A stretch of 64,000 nucleotides of DNA from Terriglobia bacterium (GTDB taxonomy: Bacteria > Acidobacteriota > Terriglobia > 2-12-FULL-54-10), in contig CBDCTS010000007.1 in assembly GCA_965222345.1 (NCBI GenBank), positions 43,853 through 107,852 on the forward strand, written 5' to 3'. Shown piece after piece: positions 39 to 45,400 of the stretch (position 1 is its first letter; the number at the start of each line of letters is the position of its first letter). The notes beneath the pieces are model-generated. The model was not told the DNA's origin, did no database searches, and saw only the letters and a program-made list of their open reading frames with translations. The position numbers and the translations under genes were made by a program.

Positions 39-1206
39 GTGGCAAGCCCGGCGTCGAGGGCTACCACCGAAGACTTCTTGATGGGACGATTCGATTCCAA
101 TATCTCAGAGAGTGATTCCTTCTTTCTGAGCTTGACTACCAGTGCCGCGAAGTTGGTGGCGCCTGAGGATCTGCCCCTCTTCGCCGACAATACAGAAACC
201 CGAAACTACACGGCGAGCCTGGAATGGACGCACATCTTTTCGCCAAGGTTGCTGCATGTGGCTGGGGTGGGTTTCGACCGCGCATTCTTCCTTAACGAAG
301 GCCGCCCGCAGAGCGCTCTCGACCCTTCGCTCGACTTTACCCCGGGTGCGGGGTTTGGAGAGATTGACTTTCAGACCAACATTACAACGTTGGGGCAGGT
401 GAACGCTCTCAATGAGATCACAAACAATACGTTCCAGTTCTCTGAACGATTCCTTTACAGCACTGGGTCTCACAGTTTGAAGGCGGGGTGGCAGATTCAG
501 CGAATTCGGAGAAATGAGATTCCAACGCTTCGTCAGCGGGGAACTCATCGCTTTGGGTCCCTGGAGGATTTTCTCGCCGGCGAACCCAATCGCTTTACCG
601 GTATCATACCCGGTGATGTCCGTGGAGCAACTCTGAACCTGGGCCTGGTGGCGCAGCCGAATTTCAGGAAAGGCTGGCGCCAAACCTACGGGGGCTTCTA
701 TGTGCAGGATTCCTGGAAAGCGACACCGACTTTTTCCGTCGATGCGGGTCTGCGGTTTGAATTCGCAACGGCTCCGGACGAAGTGGATGGCAAAACTCAC
801 CGATGGCTTGTGGACAAGTTGGTGCCGGAGGGCCTGTTTCTCCAGACGACTCCGGTGCTTGGAAAGCCGGTCTTCGATCACACCTCCACAGGCTTGGGTC
901 CGCGCCTGGGACTTGCGTGGGATCCGAGGGGAGACGGCAGGACGGTCATTCGGGTAGGTGGGGGGATGTTTTTTGAGCAGTTGGACAACAAGTTTCGGTT
1001 TTTCATGGACGCCTCTCCCCCGTTTACGGCCCGGGCGCAGTTTAGCGGGGAAGGGGATGTCCCCTTTCCAAGGCCCTTTGAAGGAAGGGATGCGAGTGAA
1101 TTAACCATTGAGGGTCGGGGGGTGGATCCCAACGCCGAAAAGGCGACGGTGTTTCACTACAACCTGGGCGTGCAACAGGAGCTGTTTTCAGACCTGGCCC
1201 TGAAGG
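39..1206 (+). pseudogene. TonB-dependent outer-membrane receptor, 5' portion (N-terminus lies upstream of the window), truncated by IS insertion
   Basis: The reading frame is continuous with 4053..4991 once the two IS copies are removed. The junction peptide ...DLALKV is repeated at both junctions. The 3' part ends in the receptor C-terminal motif (QIQFGLRLEF), as does the intact paralog at 28768..31968. Confidence 0.75.
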
Positions 1207-1207
1207 T

Positions 1208-2621
1208 GTTGTTAGCAAGTTAAAATGTCCGGTATATGTAGCAAGTGAAATGTCCGCTTTCATGATTCTACCGAAAGTGATTTGGCGCTGACCGAAGGAG
1301 CCCGTAGGGCGACGGAGGTGAGCGCCAAATGGTGTTGTCGGGAAGCCACAGGGCTCCGCCGCCGACCGCCGCACCGGATCGCCACCCCCTCGGAGGAGTA
1401 GCGGCCCACCGTGTGCGGCCCATAGCCAATGCTTAACGTCCCATCCAGGTGTTCATAGACGGTCACCCGGCAGCCCGCCAGAGTCCCGCGCCAAGGAGTT
1501 TTCTCGATCTGGAGGAGGCGGTTCTCCAGACTGACCGTATTGTCCCGATTCACTATCCGCTGGTGCTGGATCGAGAAGATTCGCTCTAACTCCCGCCTGG
1601 CTGACGGCAAAAAGGCGCTGCCTGGTTGGGTGGCCGGCACGGCAAAGCGCCGGTTGAACTCCCCGATATAGCCCTCCCGCAGGAACCGATTCGCTGCCTC
1701 TAGCGTGATGATTCCCCGCAGGCGCAGTTCCTGCGGCAGCCGCCCTTGCCAGGTCCCGAAGTTCCGCTCGCTGCGTCCCCGCGCCTGCGGCGAATAGGCC
1801 GGAATCATCTGAATGCCCAGCTCCCGCAGGGCGCGGCCCACCTGGGTCAGCCGTTGCCGATCCACCGGCTCGCCCGCCTTCCGGGTCAGGAAGAAATGAC
1901 TGGCCCGGTCGCTATAAAGGGCGCAAAAGATCCCCTGCTGCTCGACCACCTCCCGCAGGGCAGCCAGCACCGTCCGCGTCGATTCCTGCTCTACCAGTTG
2001 CGCATAGTAAATCTCGCTGCTGGCATCATCCAGGACCACCAGCAGGTCATACCAGCGATCATCGACAAACCACCGATGCTGGCTCCCATCCAGATGCAGC
2101 AGCATTCCCGGCAACGGCCGCCGGGGCCGCCTCTGGCGGTGCAGGCCCCGCTTCCGCCTCCTGTTCACTAGCCCCGCCCCTTGCAATGCCAGCTTCACCC
2201 AGGTGTAGCTCAGCCGGAGGCCGTGCTCTTCCCGCAGCTTTTCGTGAAAGTGCCGCACGTTGAAGTCAAAGTACTTCTCCTGATACAGCCCCAACACCTT
2301 CTCCACCGTCCCCAGGGGTACCCGCCGCGGACTCGGCTTTCCCCGCCGCCGGTCAAACAGCCCGTCGTAGCCGTACTGCTCGTACCGGCTGCGCCACCGC
2401 CTCATCTGCCGGTCGCTGATCCCGATGATCTCGGCTGCCTGCCACCAGTTGATCCGCTTCCCTATCGCTCGCAAAATTACTTCTTGTATCTTCATCGCCC
2501 GCTCCATCGCAGCTTCCGAGTAGAACTTCATGCCACCTCCTGGCAAAAAGCCCTACCCTACGCCGCTCAAAGCGGACATTTCACATGTTAATTAGACCGG
2601 ACATATCATGTGCTAAGAACA
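1208..2621 (-). mobile_element. ISNCY-family (IS1202-group-like) insertion sequence, copy 1 of a head-to-tail tandem pair
   Basis: ~1414 bp with imperfect ~48-bp terminal inverted repeats (TGTTGTTAGCAAGTTAAAATGTCCGG...GTGAAATGTCCGCTTT). Single 428-aa HTH + rve transposase. 99-100% identical to the copies at 2640..4052 and 37068..38482. Confidence 0.85.
1260..2546 (-). CDS. DDE transposase (N-terminal HTH + rve integrase core), ISNCY/IS1202-like
   Basis: 428-aa ORF, identical in all three copies. The N-terminal segment AAEIIGISDRQMRRWRSRYEQYGYDGL...RRGKPSPRR...LYQEKYFDFNVRHFHEKL matches the IS1202-group transposase architecture. Confidence 0.8.
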   Translation of the reverse strand: MPGGGMKFYSEAAMERAMKIQEVILRAIGKRINWWQAAEIIGISDRQMRRWRSRYEQYGYDGLFDRRRGKPSPRRVPLGTVEKVLGLYQEKYFDFNVRHFHEKLREEHGLRLSYTWVKLALQGAGLVNRRRKRGLHRQRRPRRPLPGMLLHLDGSQHRWFVDDRWYDLLVVLDDASSEIYYAQLVEQESTRTVLAALREVVEQQGIFCALYSDRASHFFLTRKAGEPVDRQRLTQVGRALRELGIQMIPAYSPQARGRSERNFGTWQGRLPQELRLRGIITLEAANRFLREGYIGEFNRRFAVPATQPGSAFLPSARRELERIFSIQHQRIVNRDNTVSLENRLLQIEKTPWRGTLAGCRVTVYEHLDGTLSIGYGPHTVGRYSSEGVAIRCGGRRRSPVASRQHHLALTSVALRAPSVSAKSLSVES

Positions 2622-2639
2622 AGCCATCGCTATTTTCTG

Positions 2640-4052
2640 TTGTTAGCAAGTTAAAATGTCCGGTATATGTAGCAAGTGAAATGTCCGCTTTCATGATTCT
2701 ACCGAAAGTGATTTGGCGCTGACCGAAGGAGCCCGTAGGGCGACGGAGGTGAGCGCCAAATGGTGTTGTCGGGAAGCCACAGGGCTCCGCCGCCGACCGC
2801 CGCACCGGATCGCCACCCCCTCGGAGGAGTAGCGGCCCACCGTGTGCGGCCCATAGCCAATGCTTAACGTCCCATCCAGGTGTTCATAGACGGTCACCCG
2901 GCAGCCCGCCAGAGTCCCGCGCCAAGGAGTTTTCTCGATCTGGAGGAGGCGGTTCTCCAGACTGACCGTATTGTCCCGATTCACTATCCGCTGGTGCTGG
3001 ATCGAGAAGATTCGCTCTAACTCCCGCCTGGCTGACGGCAAAAAGGCGCTGCCTGGTTGGGTGGCCGGCACGGCAAAGCGCCGGTTGAACTCCCCGATAT
3101 AGCCCTCCCGCAGGAACCGATTCGCTGCCTCTAGCGTGATGATTCCCCGCAGGCGCAGTTCCTGCGGCAGCCGCCCTTGCCAGGTCCCGAAGTTCCGCTC
3201 GCTGCGTCCCCGCGCCTGCGGCGAATAGGCCGGAATCATCTGAATGCCCAGCTCCCGCAGGGCGCGGCCCACCTGGGTCAGCCGTTGCCGATCCACCGGC
3301 TCGCCCGCCTTCCGGGTCAGGAAGAAATGACTGGCCCGGTCGCTATAAAGGGCGCAAAAGATCCCCTGCTGCTCGACCACCTCCCGCAGGGCAGCCAGCA
3401 CCGTCCGCGTCGATTCCTGCTCTACCAGTTGCGCATAGTAAATCTCGCTGCTGGCATCATCCAGGACCACCAGCAGGTCATACCAGCGATCATCGACAAA
3501 CCACCGATGCTGGCTCCCATCCAGATGCAGCAGCATTCCCGGTAACGGCCGCCGGGGCCGCCTCTGGCGGTGCAGGCCCCGCTTCCGCCTCCTGTTCACT
3601 AGCCCCGCCCCTTGCAATGCCAGCTTCACCCAGGTGTAGCTCAGCCGGAGGCCGTGCTCTTCCCGCAGCTTTTCGTGAAAGTGCCGCACGTTGAAGTCAA
3701 AGTACTTCTCCTGATACAGCCCCAACACCTTCTCCACCGTCCCCAGGGGTACCCGCCGCGGACTCGGCTTTCCCCGCCGCCGGTCAAACAGCCCGTCGTA
3801 GCCGTACTGCTCGTACCGGCTGCGCCACCGCCTCATCTGCCGGTCGCTGATCCCGATGATCTCGGCTGCCTGCCACCAGTTGATCCGCTTCCCTATCGCT
3901 CGCAAAATTACTTCTTGTATCTTCATCGCCCGCTCCATCGCAGCTTCCGAGTAGAACTTCATGCCACCTCCTGGCAAAAAGCCCTACCCTACGCCGCTCA
4001 AAGCGGACATTTCACATGTTAATTAGACCGGACATATCATGTGCTAACGACA
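2640..4052 (-). mobile_element. ISNCY/IS1202-like insertion sequence, copy 2 (tandem with copy 1)
   Basis: Same ends as copy 1. Separated from copy 1 by an ~18-bp spacer. A 17-bp direct repeat of target DNA (GACCTGGCCCTGAAGGT) flanks the pair at 1190..1206 and 4053..4069. Confidence 0.85.
2691..3977 (-). CDS. DDE transposase, ISNCY/IS1202-like (identical to 1260..2546)
   Basis: 428 aa, 100% identical protein. Confidence 0.8.
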   Translation of the reverse strand: MPGGGMKFYSEAAMERAMKIQEVILRAIGKRINWWQAAEIIGISDRQMRRWRSRYEQYGYDGLFDRRRGKPSPRRVPLGTVEKVLGLYQEKYFDFNVRHFHEKLREEHGLRLSYTWVKLALQGAGLVNRRRKRGLHRQRRPRRPLPGMLLHLDGSQHRWFVDDRWYDLLVVLDDASSEIYYAQLVEQESTRTVLAALREVVEQQGIFCALYSDRASHFFLTRKAGEPVDRQRLTQVGRALRELGIQMIPAYSPQARGRSERNFGTWQGRLPQELRLRGIITLEAANRFLREGYIGEFNRRFAVPATQPGSAFLPSARRELERIFSIQHQRIVNRDNTVSLENRLLQIEKTPWRGTLAGCRVTVYEHLDGTLSIGYGPHTVGRYSSEGVAIRCGGRRRSPVASRQHHLALTSVALRAPSVSAKSLSVES

Positions 4053-4991
4053 GACCTGGCCCTGAAGGTTGCGTACGCGGGATCGAAAGGGTATCATCTG
4101 AGCAATCAGATCAGCGCGAATCTCCGGCCAGCGGTAATTCTTCCTGATGGGAGAAAACATTGGCCCAATAGGCGCGGGCCATTCGCCAACCCCATCTTGG
4201 GCGCCGTAAATATCTTGAACGCCAATTCTAATTCTTGGTACAACTCCCTCCGGGTTGAACTGGAGAAGCGGTTTGGCAGTGGCGGGGGGACGCTGGAGAA
4301 TCTTCGCTTCAAGTGGGCTTACACCTTTGCCAAATCCATTGATCACCATTCAGTCAACCAGAACAGCGCGGCACGCAACGGTCGATCGCGACCACTGGAC
4401 TCATTCGATCTCGAGAGAGAAAAGGCGCTTTCCAACTTCGATCTCCGCCACAACGTGACGTTCAATTTCGGCTACGGGCTCCCACGGTTTTATTCGGGTG
4501 GTGGGTTCGGAGCCACGCTGCTCAATGACTGGTCCATCAATGGGATTCTGACGGGGAATACCGGCCACCCGGCAGGAGTTGAAGTCGGGACTAACCGGTC
4601 TCAAAATGGGGAATCCTCCGTCGTTGACCGGCCGGATCTGGTGCCGGGAGGGGACACGAATCCCGTGTTAGGGGGTCCGGATGAATACTTTGATTTCCAA
4701 GACTTCCTTTTCCCGGGGGCCGGCTTTCACGGCAATCTGGGCCGGAACACTCTGATCATGCCGGGGTTGGTGACTTTTGATTTTTCCCTGGTCAAAGCTT
4801 TTCCCCTCTCGGAAAGGTTCGGGCTTCAGTTCCGGTCCGAGTTTTTCAACCTGTTCAATAGGCCGAACTTTGGAGCGCCGGCAAAGAGGCTTTTCAACAG
4901 TCGCGGCAAGCTACGCGGGTCGGTTGGACGAATTAGTAACACGGTGACCACCGCTCGCCAGATACAGTTTGGCCTGCGGCTGGAATTTTGA
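4053..4991 (+). pseudogene. TonB-dependent receptor, 3' portion (continuation of 39..1206)
   Basis: Begins with the duplicated target DLALKV. Ends FRSEFFNLFNRPNF...RQIQFGLRLEF, the typical TonB-dependent receptor C-terminal barrel strand. Confidence 0.75.
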
Positions 4992-5078: not shown

Positions 5079-6377
5079 GTGGATAACAAGAAACCTAGTC
5101 GCAGGCGATTCCTGAAGGAGGGAGTTGCGCTGCCGGTTCTCGCCATGGGTGGAATAGGCTCGGCCAGAGGTCAGACAACTGGGGCCCAGACACCCAAAGT
5201 ATGGCCCGAAGAATCCCGCGCTTATGGCAAGCGCTCAAGCTTCGACGACTTGGGGCGTGTTACCGAAAGCGGTAATCTCAGCAGCGGTGCGTTATTGACT
5301 CCGCATCAGGATTTGGAGGGGATCATCACTCCATCCCCACTCCACTACGTGGTGTCGCACGGGAATATTAATTCTGCCTTGGCCATCGACCACCGGAAGC
5401 ATCGTTTTCTGCTCCACGGCTTGGTCGACCGTCAATTGATCTTCACCCTGGAGGAGCTGAAACGCCTGCCCTCCGTATCCCGGATTCACTTTCTCGAGTG
5501 CTACTCCAACACCAACCCAACCCATCGGGTTCCTGTCGGCCCTGCCTCCAATACCACCCCAAGTTATCGGGGCCATGAGACGGTCCAGCTATCGCACGGG
5601 CGCACCAGTTGCAGCGAATGGACGGGGGTAAAGCTGTCCATGCTGCTCAAGGAGGCAGGCCTGCAGCCAGGGGCCAGTTGGCTGGTTGCGGAAGGGGCAG
5701 AGGCGGCTAGGCTTGCGATAAGCATTCCGCTGGAGAAGGCCATGGACGACGCGATGCTGGCCTACGCGCAAAATGGCGAGCCGTTGCGTCCTGAGAATGG
5801 CCACCCCTTGCGTCTGTTGGTCCCCGGCTTTGAAGGGATCAATAGCGTGAAGTGGCTGAGGCGAATCAAGGTGGTGGACCGGCCCTACGGGACCAAGAAC
5901 GAAACCGCCCAGCACACCCACCTGGGACCGGACGGCAAAGCGCGTTGGTTCATGTTCGAATTAGGGCCGAAGTCGGTCGTCACCAGACCCTCGGGCGGAC
6001 AGCGATTGCCTGGCCCCGGATTTTACGAGATCACCGGATTAGCTTGGTCGGGTGGAGGTACCATCCGAAGGGTGGAAGTCTCCACCAACGGGGGCCGAGA
6101 CTGGAAAGATGCGCAGCTTCAGGAGCCGGTGCTGCGATTGGCACATACCCGGTTTCGCTTCACTTGGAATTGGAACGGAGAAGAGGCGGTGTTGCAGTCC
6201 CGCTGCACCGACGATCAGGGGACCGTCCAGCCCTCGATAACCGAGGTTGCTAACGTCTGGGGTGTGAGCCTGGACTATTTCCAAACCACAACCAATAGCG
6301 TCGGGAGGTTCAATCCCATTCAACCCTGGAGGGTAACCCGTGAAGGTAACGTTCAAAATGCGTTATGGGAGTTCTAA
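5079..6377 (+). CDS. Sulfite-oxidase-family molybdopterin oxidoreductase (SorA/SoxC-like sulfite dehydrogenase catalytic subunit), TAT-exported
   Basis: Twin-arginine motif SRRRFLKEG at the N-terminus. The Mo-domain and dimerisation region are conserved. ~65% identical to the paralog at 16999..18249. The 3' end overlaps the downstream cytochrome gene. Confidence 0.75.
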   Translation: MDNKKPSRRRFLKEGVALPVLAMGGIGSARGQTTGAQTPKVWPEESRAYGKRSSFDDLGRVTESGNLSSGALLTPHQDLEGIITPSPLHYVVSHGNINSALAIDHRKHRFLLHGLVDRQLIFTLEELKRLPSVSRIHFLECYSNTNPTHRVPVGPASNTTPSYRGHETVQLSHGRTSCSEWTGVKLSMLLKEAGLQPGASWLVAEGAEAARLAISIPLEKAMDDAMLAYAQNGEPLRPENGHPLRLLVPGFEGINSVKWLRRIKVVDRPYGTKNETAQHTHLGPDGKARWFMFELGPKSVVTRPSGGQRLPGPGFYEITGLAWSGGGTIRRVEVSTNGGRDWKDAQLQEPVLRLAHTRFRFTWNWNGEEAVLQSRCTDDQGTVQPSITEVANVWGVSLDYFQTTTNSVGRFNPIQPWRVTREGNVQNALWEF

Positions 6378-8902: not shown

Positions 8903-9551
8903 ATGAAAGGGATAACAAGCAAAGCGCTGTTTTCGTTCGTAAGTCTGGTCTTGGCAGTGACCCTGCTAGTGGGCAGCGCAGGGCTCCGGTCCGCTTCCTC
9001 CCAATCGGCAGTAGCGGACTCCCCTCCTCCCCTGGCTGAAGAGGTCTACGAAAATATCGATGTCCTAAAAGGTGTGCCCTATAGTCTGGTGATTCCCACA
9101 ATGTATCTGTTCTCGGAGTCACTTGGCGTAGAATGCGACTATTGCCACGCCCCAAGCAGGATGCGGCATTTGGACGTGAAGCCTGCCAAACAGACCGCAA
9201 AAGAAATGCTGCGGATGGTCAATACCATCAACCAGAACAACTTCGGTGGAAATCCCAAGATCACTTGTCAAATGTGCCATCGTGGGCGCCCCAAGCCGGT
9301 CGATCAACAGATTCTCGCCGGTGAGCCTCTGGAGATACTCTCCGCCGAATCGAATCGAGCCGGGGATATCGATTCGGAATTGGAGCTCACGGTGGATCAA
9401 GTTCTCGACACTTACACAACCGCACTTGGCGGGGCAGCCGCTCTTGAGAAGATTTCCACCCGCGTGGAAAGGGGTGTTGTTACCGAGCGCAGGACCGACC
9501 GACCCGAGACGGTTGCGGTGGAAATCTATTCCAAGTTTCCGGACAAACGGT
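8903..9551 (+). pseudogene. Diheme c-type cytochrome, 5' part, interrupted by an IS3-family insertion
   Basis: Signal peptide and two CxxCH motifs (CDYCH, CQMCH). Reading resumes in frame at 10813 (SVAHIGNLEPAFGIYDGEEGW...). This aligns residue-for-residue with the intact paralog at 15161..16378. Confidence 0.75.
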
Positions 9552-9628
9552 GGACCTGCCCCCCCAAAAACGGTCCAGTTGATAAGTTAGAGTAAAGGGT
9601 TTCAACTGGACTTGAAAAAGGGGGAAGG

Positions 9629-9907
9629 ATGGCTAAGAAGCGGTATACGGTCGAACAGATCATCCGACATCTACGAGAGGCAGAAGTGGAACTGGCTAAG
9701 GGCCAGACAACGGGAGTGGTCTGTCGGAAGTTGGGAATCACGGAGCAGACATATTATCGATGGCGGAAGGAGTATGGGAGCTTGCGGGTTGATCAGGTGA
9801 GGCGTTTGAAGGAACTGGAACGGGAGAATGGCCGACTGAAGAAGTTGGTAGCGGATCAGGCGTTGGACCTTGCGATTCTGAAGGAGGCATCCTCGGGAAA
9901 CTTCTAA
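9629..9907 (+). CDS. IS3-family transposase OrfA (HTH)
   Basis: 92 aa. MAKKRYTVEQIIRHLREAE...RWRKEYG is the typical IS3/IS911 OrfA helix-turn-helix followed by a leucine zipper. Confidence 0.85.
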   Translation: MAKKRYTVEQIIRHLREAEVELAKGQTTGVVCRKLGITEQTYYRWRKEYGSLRVDQVRRLKELERENGRLKKLVADQALDLAILKEASSGNF

Positions 9908-9930
9908 GCCCGTGCCGACGGAGGCAGGCA

Positions 9931-10782
9931 GTGGAGCGTGTCTGTCAGACCTTGGGAGTGTCGGAGCGGCGGGCGTGTCGAGTGCTGAGGCAGTACCGAT
10001 CCACCCAGCGGCATCGAACCTTGACACCACAGGATGAACCGCGACTGGTGACCCGGACGCTGCAGTTAGCCGGCGAGTACGGTCGATACGGCTACCGGCG
10101 AATCACGGCGCTGTTGCGACGGGAGGGGTGGAGGGTGAACCATAAGCGGGAGAGAATCTGGAGGCAGGAGGGACTGAAAGTGCCGAAGAAACAACCCCGG
10201 AAAAGCCGCCTGTGGTTGAACGATGGGTCGTGTCTTCGGTTAAGACCGTGCTGGCGGGATCATGTCTGGGCGTACGATTTTGTGGCAGATCGAACCCAGG
10301 ATGGTCGTCCCCTGAAGATGTTGACGGTGGTGGATGAGTACACGCGAGAATGTTTGGCAATCGACGTAGAACGGCGAGCTGATTCGATGAGTGTCTTGGA
10401 ACGGCTGGCAGCCTTGTTTGTGGAGCGAGGAGTTCCCGATTACATTCGCTCGGATAACGGGTCCGAGTTCACAGCACGGTTGGTTCGGAACTGGCTGGAG
10501 CGGGTAGGGGTAAAGACCTTGTTCATCGAGCCGGGGAGCCCATGGGAAAACGGGTATGTAGAATCGTTGAACGGGAAGTTTCGAGACGAGTTTCTCAATG
10601 GGGAGATCTTCTACACCTTGCAGGAAGCGAAGGTGTTGATTGAGGGATGGCGGCGGGAGTATAACAAAGTTCGCCCGCACAGCGCGTTAGGCTACCGGCC
10701 GCCAGCCCCGGAAGCGATCCTGCCGTTACGGCCGGGTTCCGCTCCGCTCCACCCGGCTGCAACGGCTTATGGACTAACATAA
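9931..10782 (+). CDS. IS3-family transposase OrfB (rve integrase core, DDE)
   Basis: 283 aa with the conserved integrase catalytic core. Carries a 1-codon deletion relative to the copy at 43186..44040. Confidence 0.85.
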   Translation: MERVCQTLGVSERRACRVLRQYRSTQRHRTLTPQDEPRLVTRTLQLAGEYGRYGYRRITALLRREGWRVNHKRERIWRQEGLKVPKKQPRKSRLWLNDGSCLRLRPCWRDHVWAYDFVADRTQDGRPLKMLTVVDEYTRECLAIDVERRADSMSVLERLAALFVERGVPDYIRSDNGSEFTARLVRNWLERVGVKTLFIEPGSPWENGYVESLNGKFRDEFLNGEIFYTLQEAKVLIEGWRREYNKVRPHSALGYRPPAPEAILPLRPGSAPLHPAATAYGLT

Positions 10783-10812
10783 AAAGTGGACCAACAACCG
10801 GGGGCAGGTCAC

Positions 10813-37020: not shown

Positions 37021-37067
37021 TCAGATTAGTGAAGCAAACCCAAATTGTCAAGTAGGAGAGGGCTTTG

Positions 37068-38482
37068 TGTCGTTAGCACATGATATGTCCGGTCTAATTA
37101 ACATGTGAAATGTCCGCTTTGAGCGGCGTAGGGTAGGGCTTTTTGCCAGGAGGTGGCATGAAGTTCTACTCGGAAGCTGCGATGGAGCGGGCGATGAAGA
37201 TACAAGAAGTAATTTTGCGAGCGATAGGGAAGCGGATCAACTGGTGGCAGGCAGCCGAGATCATCGGGATCAGCGACCGGCAGATGAGGCGGTGGCGCAG
37301 CCGGTACGAGCAGTACGGCTACGACGGGCTGTTTGACCGGCGGCGGGGAAAGCCGAGTCCGCGGCGGGTACCCCTGGGGACGGTGGAGAAGGTGTTGGGG
37401 CTGTATCAGGAGAAGTACTTTGACTTCAACGTGCGGCACTTTCACGAAAAGCTGCGGGAAGAGCACGGCCTCCGGCTGAGCTACACCTGGGTGAAGCTGG
37501 CATTGCAAGGGGCGGGGCTAGTGAACAGGAGGCGGAAGCGGGGCCTGCACCGCCAGAGGCGGCCCCGGCGGCCGTTGCCGGGAATGCTGCTGCATCTGGA
37601 TGGGAGCCAGCATCGGTGGTTTGTCGATGATCGCTGGTATGACCTGCTGGTGGTCCTGGATGATGCCAGCAGCGAGATTTACTATGCGCAACTGGTAGAG
37701 CAGGAATCGACGCGGACGGTGCTGGCTGCCCTGCGGGAGGTGGTCGAGCAGCAGGGGATCTTTTGCGCCCTTTATAGCGACCGGGCCAGTCATTTCTTCC
37801 TGACCCGGAAGGCGGGCGAGCCGGTGGATCGGCAACGGCTGACCCAGGTGGGCCGCGCCCTGCGGGAGCTGGGCATTCAGATGATTCCGGCCTATTCGCC
37901 GCAGGCGCGGGGACGCAGCGAGCGGAACTTCGGGACCTGGCAAGGGCGGCTGCCGCAGGAACTGCGCCTGCGGGGAATCATCACGCTAGAGGCAGCGAAT
38001 CGGTTCCTGCGGGAGGGCTATATCGGGGAGTTCAACCGGCGCTTTGCCGTGCCGGCCACCCAACCAGGCAGCGCCTTTTTGCCGTCAGCCAGGCGGGAGT
38101 TAGAGCGAATCTTCTCGATCCAGCACCAGCGGATAGTGAATCGGGACAATACGGTCAGTCTGGAGAACCGCCTCCTCCAGATCGAGAAAACTCCTTGGCG
38201 CGGGACTCTGGCGGGCTGCCGGGTGACCGTCTATGAACACCTGGATGGGACGTTAAGCATTGGCTATGGGCCGCACACGGTGGGCCGCTACTCCTCCGAG
38301 GGGGTGGCGATCCGGTGCGGCGGTCGGCGGCGGAGCCCTGTGGCTTCCCGACAACACCATTTGGCGCTCACCTCCGTCGCCCTACGGGCTCCTTCGGTCA
38401 GCGCCAAATCACTTTCGGTAGAATCATGAAAGCGGACATTTCACTTGCTACATATACCGGACATTTTAACTTGCTAACAACA
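37068..38482 (+). mobile_element. ISNCY/IS1202-like insertion sequence, copy 3 (inverted relative to copies 1 and 2)
   Basis: Same IRs and transposase. Flanked by a 16-bp direct repeat GTAGGAGAGGGCTTTG (37052..37067 and 38483..38498). Inserted 1 bp upstream of a TTGACA-N17-TAATCT promoter-like sequence facing rplM. Confidence 0.85.
37143..38429 (+). CDS. DDE transposase, ISNCY/IS1202-like (identical to copies 1 and 2)
   Basis: 428 aa, identical protein. Confidence 0.8.
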   Translation: MPGGGMKFYSEAAMERAMKIQEVILRAIGKRINWWQAAEIIGISDRQMRRWRSRYEQYGYDGLFDRRRGKPSPRRVPLGTVEKVLGLYQEKYFDFNVRHFHEKLREEHGLRLSYTWVKLALQGAGLVNRRRKRGLHRQRRPRRPLPGMLLHLDGSQHRWFVDDRWYDLLVVLDDASSEIYYAQLVEQESTRTVLAALREVVEQQGIFCALYSDRASHFFLTRKAGEPVDRQRLTQVGRALRELGIQMIPAYSPQARGRSERNFGTWQGRLPQELRLRGIITLEAANRFLREGYIGEFNRRFAVPATQPGSAFLPSARRELERIFSIQHQRIVNRDNTVSLENRLLQIEKTPWRGTLAGCRVTVYEHLDGTLSIGYGPHTVGRYSSEGVAIRCGGRRRSPVASRQHHLALTSVALRAPSVSAKSLSVES

Positions 38483-38794
38483 GTAGGAGAGGGCTTTGGA
38501 CACTGCAAGGGTAGCCCGGTTGACTTAATTTCAGTTGCCGATTCCTGTTGAAATACCGCACTGCACTTGGCTGCCCAGTCCGCGCAGGACCGGGGCAAGG
38601 GAAGCATCCGTTGCAGCACTCCGTTGATATTTCCCCATTTGCCAACCTCCTCTTGTCCTCGATTTGGCCGCCACGGCGCTCTTTACGCATCCGGCCAAAA
38701 AGGCTAGGATGACTAGCCGATCAAACTCCCCCGGCAGGGGATCACCGTTGTGACCTGAAGACATCCATGCCGGGGTGAACGAGGAAACTTCTGC

Positions 38795-43155: not shown

Positions 43156-43185
43156 GTGACCTGCCCCCGGTTGTTGGTCCACTTT

Positions 43186-44040
43186 TTATGTTAGTCCATA
43201 AGCCGTTGCAGCCGGGTGGAGCGGAGCGGAACCCGGCCGTAACGGCAGGATCGCTTCCGGGGCTGGCGGCCGGTAGCCTAACGCGCTGTGCGGGCGAACT
43301 TTGTTATACTCCCGCCGCCATCCCTCAATCAACACCTTCGCTTCCTGCAAGGTGTAGAAGATCTCCCCATTGAGAAACTCGTCTCGAAACTTCCCGTTCA
43401 ACGATTCTACATACCCGTTTTCCCATGGGCTCCCCGGCTCGATGAACAAGGTCTTTACCCCTACCCGCTCCAGCCAGTTCCGAACCAACCGTGCTGTGAA
43501 CTCGGACCCGTTATCCGAGCGAATGTAATCGGGAACTCCTCGCTCCACAAACAAGGCTGCCAGCCGTTCCAAGACACTCATCGAATCAGCTCGCCGTTCT
43601 ACGTCGATTGCCAAACATTCTCGCGTGTACTCATCCACCACCGTCAACATCTTCAGGGGACGACCATCCTGGGTTCGATCTGCCACAAAATCGTACGCCC
43701 AGACATGATCCCGCCAGCACGGTCTTAACCGAAGACACGACCCATCGTTCAACCACAGGCGGCTTTTCCGGGGTTGTTTCTTCGGCACTTTCAGTCCCTC
43801 CTGCCTCCAGATTCTCTCCACCCGCTTATGGTTCACCCTCCACCCCTCCCGTCGCAACAGCGCCGTGATTCGCCGGTAGCCGTATCGACCGTACTCGCCG
43901 GCTAACTGCAGCGTCCGGGTCACCAGTCGCGGTTCATCCTGTGGTGTCAAGGTTCGATGCCGCTGGGTGGATCGGTACTGCCTCAGCACTCGACACGCCC
44001 GCCGCTCCGACACTCCCAAGGTCTGACAGACACGCTCCAC
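43186..44040 (-). CDS. IS3-family transposase OrfB
   Basis: 284 aa; identical to 9931..10782 except for one extra residue (HKRVERIW). Confidence 0.85.
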   Translation of the reverse strand: MERVCQTLGVSERRACRVLRQYRSTQRHRTLTPQDEPRLVTRTLQLAGEYGRYGYRRITALLRREGWRVNHKRVERIWRQEGLKVPKKQPRKSRLWLNDGSCLRLRPCWRDHVWAYDFVADRTQDGRPLKMLTVVDEYTRECLAIDVERRADSMSVLERLAALFVERGVPDYIRSDNGSEFTARLVRNWLERVGVKTLFIEPGSPWENGYVESLNGKFRDEFLNGEIFYTLQEAKVLIEGWRREYNKVRPHSALGYRPPAPEAILPLRPGSAPLHPAATAYGLT

Positions 44041-44063
44041 TGCCTGCCTCCGTCGGCACGGGC

Positions 44064-44342
44064 TTAGAAGTTTCCCGAGGATGCCTCCTTCAGAATCGCA
44101 AGGTCCAACGCCTGATCCGCTACCAACTTCTTCAGTCGGCCATTCTCCCGTTCCAGTTCCTTCAAACGCCTCACCTGATCAACCCGCAAGCTCCCATACT
44201 CCTTCCGCCATCGATAATATGTCTGCTCCGTGATTCCCAACTTCCGACAGACCACTCCCGTTGTCTGGCCCTTAGCCAGTTCCACTTCTGCCTCTCGTAG
44301 ATGTCGGATGATCTGTTCGACCGTATACCGCTTCTTAGCCAT
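44064..44342 (-). CDS. IS3-family transposase OrfA
   Basis: Identical to 9629..9907. Confidence 0.85.
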   Translation of the reverse strand: MAKKRYTVEQIIRHLREAEVELAKGQTTGVVCRKLGITEQTYYRWRKEYGSLRVDQVRRLKELERENGRLKKLVADQALDLAILKEASSGNF

Positions 44343-44419
44343 CCTTCCCCCTTTTTCAAGTCCAGTTGAAACCCTTTACTCTAACTTATCAACTGGACCG
44401 TTTTTGGGGGGGCAGGTCC

Positions 44420-45400
44420 GCTGCTTCCCAGGCCCAGCAGCCAGGCGAGCGGGGTGAACAGCCAGCCCAGAATTCGCTCCAGGCTCAGCGGCGCGCCAAA
44501 CCAAACTTCCAAAGGTGCGGTCAACTTCCCCAACGCCAGGTCCACGATCCCAACCACGCCCAAGACCGCAATCAGCAGCGTGGCGATGCCTGCGGCCAGC
44601 TTTAAACCGTCCCAGGAACCGGCGCTCAGCGCGGCCATGCTGTTGTCGTGAAGCTGGGACTCGGCCAGAGGAGGCAGAGCGCCTAGCGTCTCCGGTTTGC
44701 CCGTCTCGGGAAGCATCAGTTTGGAGACCAGAACCGCTGCCGGTATGGAAAGAACGGAGGTGGAGATGAGATGCCCGGCGATCTGGGGAAAACCATCCTG
44801 GAGAAAGAAGACGTACAGAGCCAGAGTGGTGGAGGCGGCGGTTGACATGGCGCAGGTAAGAAGGGTCAACAGTTCCGAGCGAGTCATCCCGGCCAGATAG
44901 GGCCGGATGGTAGTGGCGGATTCGATCCCCACGAAGATGTTCGAGGAGCCGGCCAGCGCCTCCGCCCCGGACAGGCGCAGCGTCTTTTGGAACAACCGCG
45001 CGAACAGCCGGATCACCGGCTGAATCAGGCCCAGGTGGTAGCACACCGACATCAGTGCGGCGAAGAAAACCACGGCGGGCAGCACCTGCGCCGCCAGGAT
45101 AAATCCCACGGAGGGTTCCCCCGCCGAGGTGGTCTCGCCCGGATTAAGAGCCAGAGGTCCGAAAAGAAACTCAGCCCCGGTGCGGCTTGCTCCCAGCAAG
45201 GCAACCACCAGGTCATTGATGCTCAGCAGGAGAAGGCGTGTCTGCGGCAGCAAGAAGACCAGCGCCCCCAGTGCCAGCATCAACACCCCTGAGCCGCAAA
45301 CCGGCCGCCAAGGCAGCGGCCTGCGGAAGCCTCCCGCTGCCCACCCCAGACAGCCCAACCCAAGCAGTCCAAGCAAAGAGATCAGATTCAGCACGCTCAT
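44420..45400 (-). pseudogene. NupC/CNT-family nucleoside transporter, 5' fragment
   Basis: N-terminal TM helices and the …SNIFVGIESATTIRPYL… region of CNT transporters. The frame runs into the IS end at 44420. Confidence 0.7.

What the first reader, a model, noticed from the sequence alone, without database searches (positions are those of the whole stretch)
1190..4069. Head-to-tail tandem dimer of an ISNCY/IS1202-like element with a 17-bp target duplication and an ~18-bp inter-copy spacer
Two 100%-identical IS copies lie in direct orientation inside a TonB-receptor gene. The pair is flanked by a 17-bp direct repeat (GACCTGGCCCTGAAGGT). The copies are separated by a short unrelated spacer (…AGCCATCGCTATTTTCTG…) whose length roughly equals the target-duplication length. 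Copy 1's right end carries a 1-nt deletion (GTGCTAAGAACA against GTGCTAACGACA). The solo copy at 37068..38482 has a 16-bp duplication. Such long duplications are a hallmark of the IS1202 group. An (IS)2 dimer with a target-length spacer is what would be expected from insertion of a circle-junction or dimer intermediate, hinting at the transposition mechanism of this poorly studied family. It also shows the element is currently active.
Basis: partly seen in the sequence, partly recalled or inferred. Interest (0 to 1): 0.5.

Follow-up and report, generated by a model that had tools for sequence, protein, structure and literature searches.

The report
Mobile tandem IS pair targeting promoters
Two copies of a jumping gene sit head-to-tail exactly 16 bases apart inside a receptor gene of a soil-type Acidobacteriota bacterium, probably because this element always lands just upstream of gene promoters, so a second copy can land one step from the first and the pair can then jump together.

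Summary
The tandem pair is real. Copy 1 is 1207-2621, the spacer is 2622-2637 (16 bp) and copy 2 is 2638-4052. A 16-bp target duplication flanks the pair. Six related contigs carry the uninterrupted TonB-receptor gene with one copy of that 16-mer.

Three details were wrong. The copies differ at 3 positions. The variant tip is a CG->GA double substitution, not a deletion. The true duplication is 16 bp, not 17.

The element belongs to the IS1202 family, long-duplication (ISTde1-like) subgroup.

New evidence:
- The identical 2846-bp pair (1 nt different) sits at a second locus in an independent assembly.
- The variant tip plus spacer survive as a fossil at a third locus, where the spacer is native DNA next to TTGACA.
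- This element and its Acidobacteriota relatives insert, in one orientation, 16-17 bp upstream of sigma-70-type promoters (TTGAC, 17 bp, TAnnnT).
- The promoter survives insertion, so a second hit makes a tandem. One relative shows two different elements stacked this way.

Best reading: the pair formed by re-insertion at the fossil promoter, then moved as a unit. A circle-junction origin is not excluded. I found no earlier report of promoter targeting for this subgroup.

The parts
39..1206 (+). 5' part of the interrupted TonB-dependent receptor gene (it continues upstream of the window)
   Evidence: ORF list. The intact 1067-1069-aa gene is present in L011, L012, L014, L015, L016 and L017.
1191..1206 (.). 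Left copy of the 16-bp target-site duplication, GACCTGGCCCTGAAGG
   Evidence: It is single-copy in the empty sites.
1207..2621 (-). IS copy 1 (1415 bp; promoter-distal, inferred to be the older copy). Identical to the consensus except for the tip.
1260..2531 (-). Transposase gene of copy 1 (423 aa from the ATG; an alternative TTG start lies at 2546)
   Evidence: ISNCY_2 at 372 bits. HTH and rve domains. 37% identity to the ISKpn21 transposase.
2617..2618 (.). CG->GA double substitution in the internal IS tip (...GCTAAGAACA)
   Evidence: The same variant occurs in the L006 pair and in the fossil site. It is absent from 17 solo copies.
2622..2637 (.). 16-bp spacer S, AGCCATCGCTATTTTC. It is the native target duplication of another locus.
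   Evidence: In L008, L123-L129 and L131 it follows a 26-bp remnant of the variant tip and precedes TTGACA.
2638..4052 (-). IS copy 2 (1415 bp; promoter-proximal, inferred to be the newer copy). It has a wild-type tip and C906T at window position 3543.
2691..3962 (-). Transposase gene of copy 2 (protein identical to that of copy 1)
4053..4068 (.). Right copy of the 16-bp target-site duplication
4069..4097 (+). Promoter-like target motif abutting the duplication: TTGCGT, 17 nt, TATCAT
   Evidence: Read. It fits the target consensus.
4053..4991 (+). 3' part of the interrupted TonB-dependent receptor gene
37068..38482 (+). Solo copy of the same IS (consensus sequence; transposase gene at 37158-38429)
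37023..37067 (-). Target of the solo copy. The 16-bp duplication is 37052-37067 (second copy at 38483-38498). On the minus strand a promoter follows: TTGACA (37051-37046), 17 nt, TAATCT (37028-37023).

Best explanation
This is a real tandem pair of a 1415-bp insertion sequence. The element belongs to the IS1202 family, long-duplication (ISTde1-like) subgroup. The host is an uncultured Acidobacteriota (Terriglobia-like) bacterium.

Shown: the element inserts in one fixed orientation. Its transposase-proximal end lands 16-17 bp upstream of the -35 box of a sigma-70-type promoter, and it duplicates those 16-17 bp. The promoter and the duplicated 16-mer stay intact next to the element.

Inferred, with direct support from relatives: a second insertion at the same promoter lands exactly one duplication length from the first. 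This gives a head-to-tail pair whose spacer is the duplication.

Inferred: the junction seen in the window (variant tip GA plus spacer S) was made in this way at another promoter, upstream of a PSD/PSCyt-domain gene. That locus now keeps only a 26-bp stump of the older copy.

Inferred: the 2846-bp pair then transposed as a composite through its two outer, wild-type ends. It reached at least two new promoter-like sites. One is inside the TonB-receptor gene (this window, a new 16-bp duplication). The other is the PGM/frdA intergenic promoter (L006).

Speculative: the CG->GA change at positions 4-5 of the internal tip probably cripples that end, which would favour use of the outer ends.
For: Structure and duplication:
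- Searches show the layout. The empty site is present in 6 contigs.

The same pair elsewhere:
- L006/L116 comes from a different sample and a different locus. It carries the same spacer and the same GA tip, with 1 nt of difference over 2846 bp.
- T906 and GA occur only in pair copies. Neither occurs in any of 17 solo copies.

Origin of the spacer:
- A remnant of the GA tip, then S, then TTGACA is conserved in 9 contigs. One of them has a SNP inside S.

Target rule:
- At 14 sites of this IS, the duplication is followed by T 13/14, T 12/14, G 13/14.
- Among 58 sites that include relatives, TTGAC is near-invariant. TAnnnT starts at offset 23 in 31 of 58 sites and at offset 24 in 9 of 58.
- In 39 relatives with a perfect duplication, 21 carry both boxes on the promoter side and 0 on the other side. 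The background rate is 0.0002.
- In 12 of 13 gene tables the neighbouring gene on that side points away from the IS.

Re-insertion makes tandems:
- L064 has the layout GTCAA-X-ISa-X-ISb-X, with ISa and ISb only 70% identical.
- L042 has a 100%-identical copy next to the promoter and an older, truncated, 97%-identical copy on the far side, with the same 17-mer on both sides of the proximal copy.
- Seven metagenome contigs carry end-16/17 bp-end junctions next to decayed or diverged copies.

Independent insertion of the pair at the PGM site:
- The pair's right junction is a 16-bp event, while both solo alleles there are 17-bp events.
Against: - No strain was found that still carries the pair, or an intact older copy, at the fossil promoter. 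All 9 contigs show only the stump.
- At the PGM site, solo alleles exist and one shares an odd left flank with the pair. Recombination with a resident copy is therefore involved at least there.
- The single marker at position 906 is C in copy 1 and T in copy 2 in the window. That is exactly what a T906 circle recombining into a C906 resident copy would give. Unit transposition from a T/T ancestor needs one extra conversion.
- The window's own contig was not recovered from the public collections, so read support for this particular locus could not be examined.
- The effect of the GA tip on activity is untested.
Confidence: 0.55

Rival explanations
1. Circle-junction route. A 1431-bp circle (one IS plus spacer S) arose either by transposase-driven copy-out from the GA-tipped copy at the fossil site, or by RecA loop-out from an existing pair. 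It then integrated by homologous recombination into ordinary solo copies already present at the TonB site and at the PGM site. This would recreate the same internal junction at each place.
For: - ISKpn21, a member of the same family, forms circles whose ends are separated by a duplication-length flank (preprint 10.1101/2022.12.17.520857).
- Solo alleles exist at the PGM site.
- The window pattern (C906 with GA in copy 1, T906 with CG in copy 2) is the direct product of a T906/GA circle crossing over between positions 906 and 1410 of a C906 resident copy.
Against: - No solo copy is seen at the TonB site in 8 other contigs.
- At the PGM site the pair's right junction is a 16-bp event but the solos are 17-bp events.
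- The L006 pair is T906/T906, which a C906 resident copy cannot give.
- No junction promoter was found.
- Heterologous tandems in relatives (L064, L019) cannot come from circles.
Confidence: 0.25
2. In-place duplication. The pair arose at this locus by unequal crossing-over or replication slippage between the flanking duplications of a single copy.
For: Tandem duplication between short direct repeats is a known process (general knowledge).
Against: - Such an event would put the local 16-mer (GACCTGGCCCTGAAGG) between the copies. The spacer is an unrelated 16-mer that is native to another locus.
- Both copies would then share the GA tip, and they do not.
Confidence: 0.02
3. Assembly artefact. 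A single IS copy was expanded into two by the assembler.
For: Repeats are a classic source of assembly error. No reads were available for the window.
Against: - The two copies differ at 3 positions.
- The spacer is a specific sequence found as genomic DNA at another locus in 9 contigs.
- The identical pair occurs at a different locus in an independent 44x long contig.
Confidence: 0.02

Closest known systems
IS1202 family, ISTde1 / long-duplication subgroup (ISTde1, ISCARN53, ISCARN62, ISCARN63; Siguier et al. preprint 10.1101/2022.12.17.520857; Harmer and Hall, PMC10132070)
   Same: - Size about 1.4 kb, with a single transposase of about 420 aa.
- DDE motif with Q at E+7 and a DD pair between the first two catalytic D residues.
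- TGT...ACA ends with a second internal binding-site-like repeat.
- 16-17-bp duplications.
- Members of this subgroup have been reported from Acidobacteria.
   Different: - It is an unnamed element.
- Both papers report no target for this subgroup. Here a precise promoter-adjacent target is seen.
ISKpn21 tandem arrays at dif/xrs sites (IS1202 family, ISAba32 subgroup)
   Same: - Same family (37% transposase identity).
- Orientation-specific insertion at a fixed distance from a recognised site.
- The site survives insertion, so repeated hits give head-to-tail copies separated by the duplication.
   Different: - The ISKpn21 target is a XerC/D site with a 5-bp duplication.
- Here the target is a sigma-70-type promoter with a 16-17-bp duplication.
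- Here the pair has left its birthplace: the spacer differs from the flanking duplication.
(IS)2 dimers and circle junctions of copy-out-paste-in elements (IS911/IS3, IS30, IS21, IS256)
   Same: The ends abut and are separated by a duplication-length piece of donor flank.
   Different: - Those junctions assemble a strong promoter and are highly reactive and unstable.
- Here no junction promoter was found.
- The junction is stable enough to be shared by two loci.
- Its inner tip is mutated.
Composite transposons (two IS copies moving through their outer ends)
   Same: A new 16-bp duplication flanks the whole 2846-bp unit, and the identical unit is found at two loci.
   Different: The cargo is only the 16-bp spacer. 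The copies are direct repeats that touch, apart from that spacer.
Protein-guided target choice: Tn7 (TnsB/TnsD at attTn7) and yeast Ty3 at RNA polymerase III start sites (my own knowledge, used as an analogy only)
   Same: Insertion at a fixed distance and in a fixed orientation from a site occupied by a host protein complex. The family's transposase has been modelled on TnsB (PMC10132070).
   Different: There are no accessory genes and no sign of target immunity, since tandems are allowed. Whether RNA polymerase or the DNA sequence itself is recognised is unknown.

Membership tests
IS1202 family | Transposase homologous to family members (25-60% identity among members) | tested here: met
   NCBIfam ISNCY_2 (NF033594) at 372 bits against a cut-off of 250. 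tblastn gives 37% identity over 85% of the length, E 6e-41, to genes annotated as ISKpn21-family transposase.
IS1202 family | DDE motif with Q (not K/R) seven residues after E, and a conserved DD pair between the first two catalytic D residues | tested here: met
   Read from the translation: LHLDGS ... VVLDDASS ... LYSDRAS ... SERNFGTWQ.
IS1202 family | Ends 5'-TGT...ACA-3', imperfect terminal repeats of about 24-26 bp, and a second internal copy of the binding motif | tested here: met
   The ends are TGTTGTTAGCAAGTTAAAATGTCCGG and TGTCGTTAGCACATGATATGTCCGG. A second ...GTGAAATGTCCGC repeat lies about 30 bp inside each end.
IS1202 family, ISTde1 subgroup | Target duplication of 15-17 bp | tested here: met
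   16 or 17 bp at 14 sites of this IS. Empty sites were verified at two loci. Relatives show 25 of 16 bp, 11 of 17 bp and 3 of 15 bp.
IS1202 family, ISTde1 subgroup | [quoted passage not shown] | not tested
IS1202 family | TnsB-like fold (HTH, RNase H, beta-barrel, C-terminal domain) | tested here: inconclusive
   Pfam finds HTH and a weak rve domain only. No solved structure was found by sequence. No model was built.
Copy-out-paste-in (IS)2 / circle junction | Abutted ends separated by a duplication-length piece of donor flank | tested here: met
   The 16-bp spacer equals the duplication length. The spacer is native flank at the fossil site.
Copy-out-paste-in (IS)2 / circle junction | A junction promoter formed from a -35 box in one end and a -10 box in the other | tested here: not met
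   The consensus scan of 1100-4200 finds no promoter across the junction. A 16-bp spacer plus the tip sequences puts the ends too far apart.
Copy-out-paste-in (IS)2 / circle junction | Free circular copies of the IS | not testable with these tools
   This needs reads or outward-facing PCR.
Tandem by repeated site-specific insertion (ISKpn21-type) | A recognised target at a fixed distance and orientation that survives insertion | tested here: met
   TTGAC, 17 bp, TAnnnT abuts the duplication on one side only.
Tandem by repeated site-specific insertion (ISKpn21-type) | The spacer is identical to the duplication flanking the array | tested here: not met
   In the window and in L006 the spacer S differs from the flanks. 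The feature is met in relatives L064 and L042. The window pair is therefore not at its place of origin.
Composite transposon | The whole unit is flanked by one new duplication, and the same unit occurs at more than one site | tested here: met
   Perfect 16-bp duplication plus empty sites. The second locus differs by 1 nt in 2846. Its left flank is atypical.

The most novel reading that the evidence does not exclude
The long-duplication branch of the IS1202 family chooses its targets by docking onto RNA polymerase-sigma70 holoenzyme (or sigma region 4 / alpha-CTD) bound at promoters. It would cut the DNA at about -36 and -52. This would explain the unusual 16-17-bp duplication, the fixed orientation, the absence of target immunity, and the pile-up of tandem and fossil copies upstream of promoters. 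It would be a bacterial counterpart of Ty3 targeting of RNA polymerase III promoters. The tandem pair in the window would then be a by-product that has itself become a mobile composite.
Probability: 0.3. Interest if true: 0.85.

Novelty: new variant of a known kind. Interest (0 to 1): 0.65.

Why it matters
The two papers that defined the IS1202 family state that no target is known for its long-duplication members and that its transposition mechanism is largely unknown.

This locus and its relatives give a concrete rule that can be tested: insertion in one orientation, 16-17 bp upstream of the -35 box of sigma-70-type promoters. The rule explains why head-to-tail copies with a duplication-length spacer arise.

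The locus also shows that such a pair can persist and relocate as a unit.

If the targeting is protein-guided, it would be a new example of a transposon reading the transcription machinery. It could also become a tool for promoter-proximal insertion.

For genome annotation, it warns that end-16 bp-end junctions in assemblies of these bacteria need not be circles or artefacts.

Tried and rejected
- Spacer search in the window: I searched the 64-kb window for the spacer and found only 10-mer chance hits.
I worked round this through cluster members.
- State of the fossil promoter: I looked for a strain with the older copy intact, or with the original pair. All 9 contigs carry only the 26-bp stump. 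L130 was too diverged to show an empty S site.
- Solo copy at the TonB site: none was found in 8 contigs.
- Metagenome junctions: I first read the seven junctions as pairs of this same IS. Ungapped comparison and tblastn showed that they are diverged or decayed relatives.
- Junction promoter: none found.
- Solved-structure homologue by sequence: none found.
- Literature: two searches for promoter-targeting ISs or a target of the ISTde1 group returned nothing relevant. This is absence within the held library only.
- Rejected explanations: in-place unequal crossing-over (the spacer is foreign) and assembly artefact (independent second locus).
Full report
**1. What is in the window**

Reading 900-4400 and running a repeat search, followed by base-by-base comparison, gives this layout:

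| Feature | Coordinates | Note |
|---|---|---|
| Left duplication | 1191-1206 | 16-mer GACCTGGCCCTGAAGG |
| IS copy 1 | 1207-2621 | 1415 bp |
| Spacer S | 2622-2637 | 16-mer AGCCATCGCTATTTTC |
| IS copy 2 | 2638-4052 | 1415 bp |
| Right duplication | 4053-4068 | same 16-mer as the left |

- The transposase gene lies on the minus strand in both copies. It encodes 423 aa from the ATG, at 1260-2531 and 2691-3962.
- A third, solo copy lies at 37068-38482 with a perfect 16-bp duplication.
- Taking the solo copy as consensus, copy 1 differs only at IS positions 1411-1412 (CG->GA, window 2617-2618).
- Copy 2 differs only at position 906 (C>T, synonymous).
- The "17-bp" repeat is a 16-bp duplication plus the first T of the element. 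The "~18-bp" spacer is exactly 16 bp.

**2. The duplication and the interrupted gene are real**

- A neighbouring gene (432 aa, 5079-6377) was used to fetch the same locus from eight other metagenome contigs.
- Seven of them (L011, L012, L014-L018) show an uninterrupted reading frame for the TonB-dependent receptor gene (1067-1069 aa where complete). L013 calls it as two ORFs, with no IS between them.
- Six contigs contain the reconstructed empty site with 1-2 mismatches in 149 nt. It carries one copy of GACCTGGCCCTGAAGG followed by TTGC.
- None has a single IS at that position.

**3. Family**

- The transposase matches NCBIfam ISNCY_2 at 372 bits against a cut-off of 250.
- It has HTH domains and a weak rve domain.
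- It is 37% identical over 85% of its length to genes annotated as ISKpn21-family transposase on enterobacterial plasmids. ISKpn21 is a named member of the IS1202 family.
- The translation shows the family signatures described in the two defining papers: a DD pair between the first two catalytic aspartates, and Q seven residues after the catalytic E (SERNFGTWQ).
- The ends are TGT...ACA, and a second copy of the binding-site-like motif lies about 30 bp inside each end.
- Duplications are 16 or 17 bp at every clean site. This places the element in the ISTde1 / long-duplication subgroup, next to elements such as ISCARN53, ISCARN62 and ISCARN63 (1387-1404 bp, 407-432 aa, 16-17 bp).
- Relatives with 70-95% protein identity are abundant in Acidobacteriota MAGs. 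The flanking genes also point to an uncultured Acidobacteriota/Terriglobia host.

**4. The same pair occurs elsewhere**

- An exact look-up of the transposase returned long contigs from several samples.
- Seventeen solo copies at about 14 sites are identical or nearly identical to the consensus. None carries GA or T906.
- One contig (L006 = L114-L116, 44x coverage, a different sample) carries a second tandem pair at a different locus, between a phosphoglucomutase gene and frdA.
- That pair has the same 16-bp spacer and the same GA tip.
- The two 2846-bp pairs differ at one nucleotide: position 906 of copy 1 is C in the window and T in L006.
- This rules out an assembly artefact. It also shows that the junction was inherited and not made twice.

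**5. Where the spacer came from**

- The spacer also occurs once in L008. There it follows a 26-bp stump of the IS end carrying the GA variant. It is followed by TTGACATGC..., which is native DNA about 120 bp upstream of a PSD/PSCyt-domain gene.
- The same fossil is present in eight further contigs of several haplotypes. One of them has a SNP inside the spacer.
- The spacer is therefore the target duplication of an old insertion at that site, and the GA tip belonged to that copy.

**6. Target rule**

- Alignment of 14 insertion sites of this IS shows that the duplication is always followed, on the side of the transposase-proximal end, by T (13/14), T (12/14), G (13/14), then A or C, then C.
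- I extended the analysis to relatives, giving 58 sites with the motif out of 89 end contexts.
  - TTGAC is nearly invariant.
  - TAnnnT starts at offset 23 in 31 of 58 sites and at offset 24 in 9 of 58.
  - This is a -35 box, a 17-18-bp spacer and a -10 box.
- In 39 relatives with a perfect duplication, 27 have TTGAC, 29 have TAnnnT and 21 have both on that side. On the other side the counts are 1, 3 and 0. The background rate for both boxes together is 0.0002 per position.
- In 12 of 13 gene tables the gene next to that end is transcribed away from the IS and starts 75-580 bp away.
- Empty sites contain the motif, so it belongs to the target and not to the element.
- The window pair sits in front of an intragenic TTGCGT-17-TATCAT. 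The solo copy sits in front of TTGACA-17-TAATCT.
- Selection after insertion could enrich promoter-upstream sites. It cannot give base-pair precision or a fixed orientation, so this is target choice.
- Neither defining paper found a target for this subgroup. Two literature searches found no such report.

**7. How tandems arise**

The promoter and the adjacent 16-mer remain intact after insertion. A second insertion at the same promoter must therefore land between the first copy and the promoter and re-duplicate the same 16-mer.

Relatives show exactly this:
- L064 has the layout GTCAA-X-ISa-X-ISb-X, with ISa and ISb only 70% identical at the DNA level.
- L042 has a copy identical to the genome's other copies on the promoter side. 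On the far side it has a truncated copy that is 97% identical, with the same 17-mer on both sides of the proximal copy.
- A pattern scan of public metagenomes found seven further end-16/17 bp-end junctions, each with a different spacer. In those contigs the upstream partner is a diverged, frameshifted or stump copy.
- Heterologous tandems cannot be produced by a circle or by replication of one element.
- The family precedent is the ISKpn21 arrays at dif sites, where copies are separated by the same 5-bp duplication.

**8. How the pair reached the window**

In the window, and in L006, the spacer differs from the flanking duplication. The pair was therefore not built in place. Two routes remain.

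*(a) Transposition of the whole 2846-bp unit through its outer ends.* Evidence in favour:
- A perfect new 16-bp duplication at a motif-bearing site.
- Empty sites only, with no solo allele, in eight other contigs.
- T906 is confined to pair copies.
- At the phosphoglucomutase site, the pair's promoter-side junction is a 16-bp event whereas both solo alleles there are 17-bp events.

*(b) A 1431-bp circle carrying the junction, recombining into resident solo copies.* Evidence in favour:
- Circles are documented for ISKpn21.
- Solo alleles exist at the phosphoglucomutase site.
- The window's C906/T906 pattern is the direct product of such a crossover.

The phosphoglucomutase site is a hot spot with empty, solo and pair alleles. 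The pair there shares an atypical left flank with one solo allele. This is most simply explained by unit insertion next to a resident copy followed by recombination between them.

I put route (a) at about 0.55-0.6 and route (b) at about 0.25. The idea that the GA change disables the inner end and so stabilises the pair is an inference only.

**9. Comparison with known systems**

- The element is a new, unnamed member of a known family.
- Tandems with a duplication-length spacer are known in that family for the 5-bp subgroup.
- Three things are new here: a tandem in the 16-17-bp subgroup, evidence that the tandem has relocated, and the promoter-adjacent target rule that explains it.
- The classical (IS)2 or circle-junction picture of the IS3, IS30 and IS21 families fits only in geometry. 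The junction promoter that defines those junctions is absent.

**10. Limits**

- No reads were available.
- The window's own contig was not retrieved.
- The fossil promoter could not be inspected in the pair-bearing strains.
- ISfinder sequences and structures were not compared.
- The promoter interpretation rests on sequence motifs and gene orientation, not on mapped transcription start sites.

Noticed in passing
window 4069-4097 and 37023-37051; loci L001-L010 and L026-L105: This IS and its relatives insert in one orientation, 16-17 bp upstream of sigma-70-type promoters (TTGAC, 17 bp, TAnnnT). I found no published report of such a target for this IS subgroup.
   Followed up: yes
L116/L121 6528-6544; L106 4326-4341 (tnp orientation): The 6-7 nt next to the transposase-distal IS end (CCCATCC) are identical at two unrelated loci. 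At the phosphoglucomutase site they replace the native end of the duplication. In L106 the 16 nt before the IS begin with TGTTCTTAGC, which is the GA-variant tip read on the other strand. Donor-flank nucleotides may travel with that end. This remains unexplained.
   Followed up: partly
L116-L122 (phosphoglucomutase/frdA intergenic region): One promoter is an insertion hot spot with three allelic states in closely related strains: empty (4 contigs), solo (2 contigs, 17-bp duplication) and tandem pair (1 contig).
   Followed up: yes
L109 compared with L004/L112: An IS copy has the same flank on one side as the L004 copy but an unrelated flank on the other side, and no duplication. This looks like a rearrangement by recombination between IS copies. 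L106 also lacks a duplication.
   Followed up: partly
window 9545-10812 and 43156-44426: Two inverted copies of a different element of about 1.27 kb. It is IS3-family-like (a 92-aa ORF followed by a 283-aa ORF). The copies differ by one indel. The copy at 9545 appears to interrupt a 230-aa ORF.
   Followed up: partly
window 2580-2609 and 4011-4040 (+ strand): A promoter-like match (TTCACA, 18 nt, TATCAT; 10 of 12) lies inside the transposase-proximal IS end. It points outward, towards the host promoter and gene. It might drive or supplement transcription of the neighbouring gene.
   Followed up: no
L011, L014, L015 (about 0.6-1.4 kb upstream of the same TonB-receptor gene): Three of the eight related contigs carry a solo copy of this IS upstream of the receptor gene that is interrupted in the window. 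In L011 the two copies of the duplication differ by one base (TACATG... against TGCATG...).
   Followed up: no
L015 and L117 (same 2.9-Mb contig): Two IS copies at different sites of one genome share the private variants 769G and 796C. This suggests within-genome propagation or homogenisation of a sub-lineage.
   Followed up: no
L019-L025 (public metagenome contigs): Seven end-16/17 bp-end junctions, each with a different spacer, lie next to stump or decayed copies of related ISs. They read as graveyards of repeated insertion at the same promoters. In short-read contigs, free circles cannot be excluded.
   Followed up: partly
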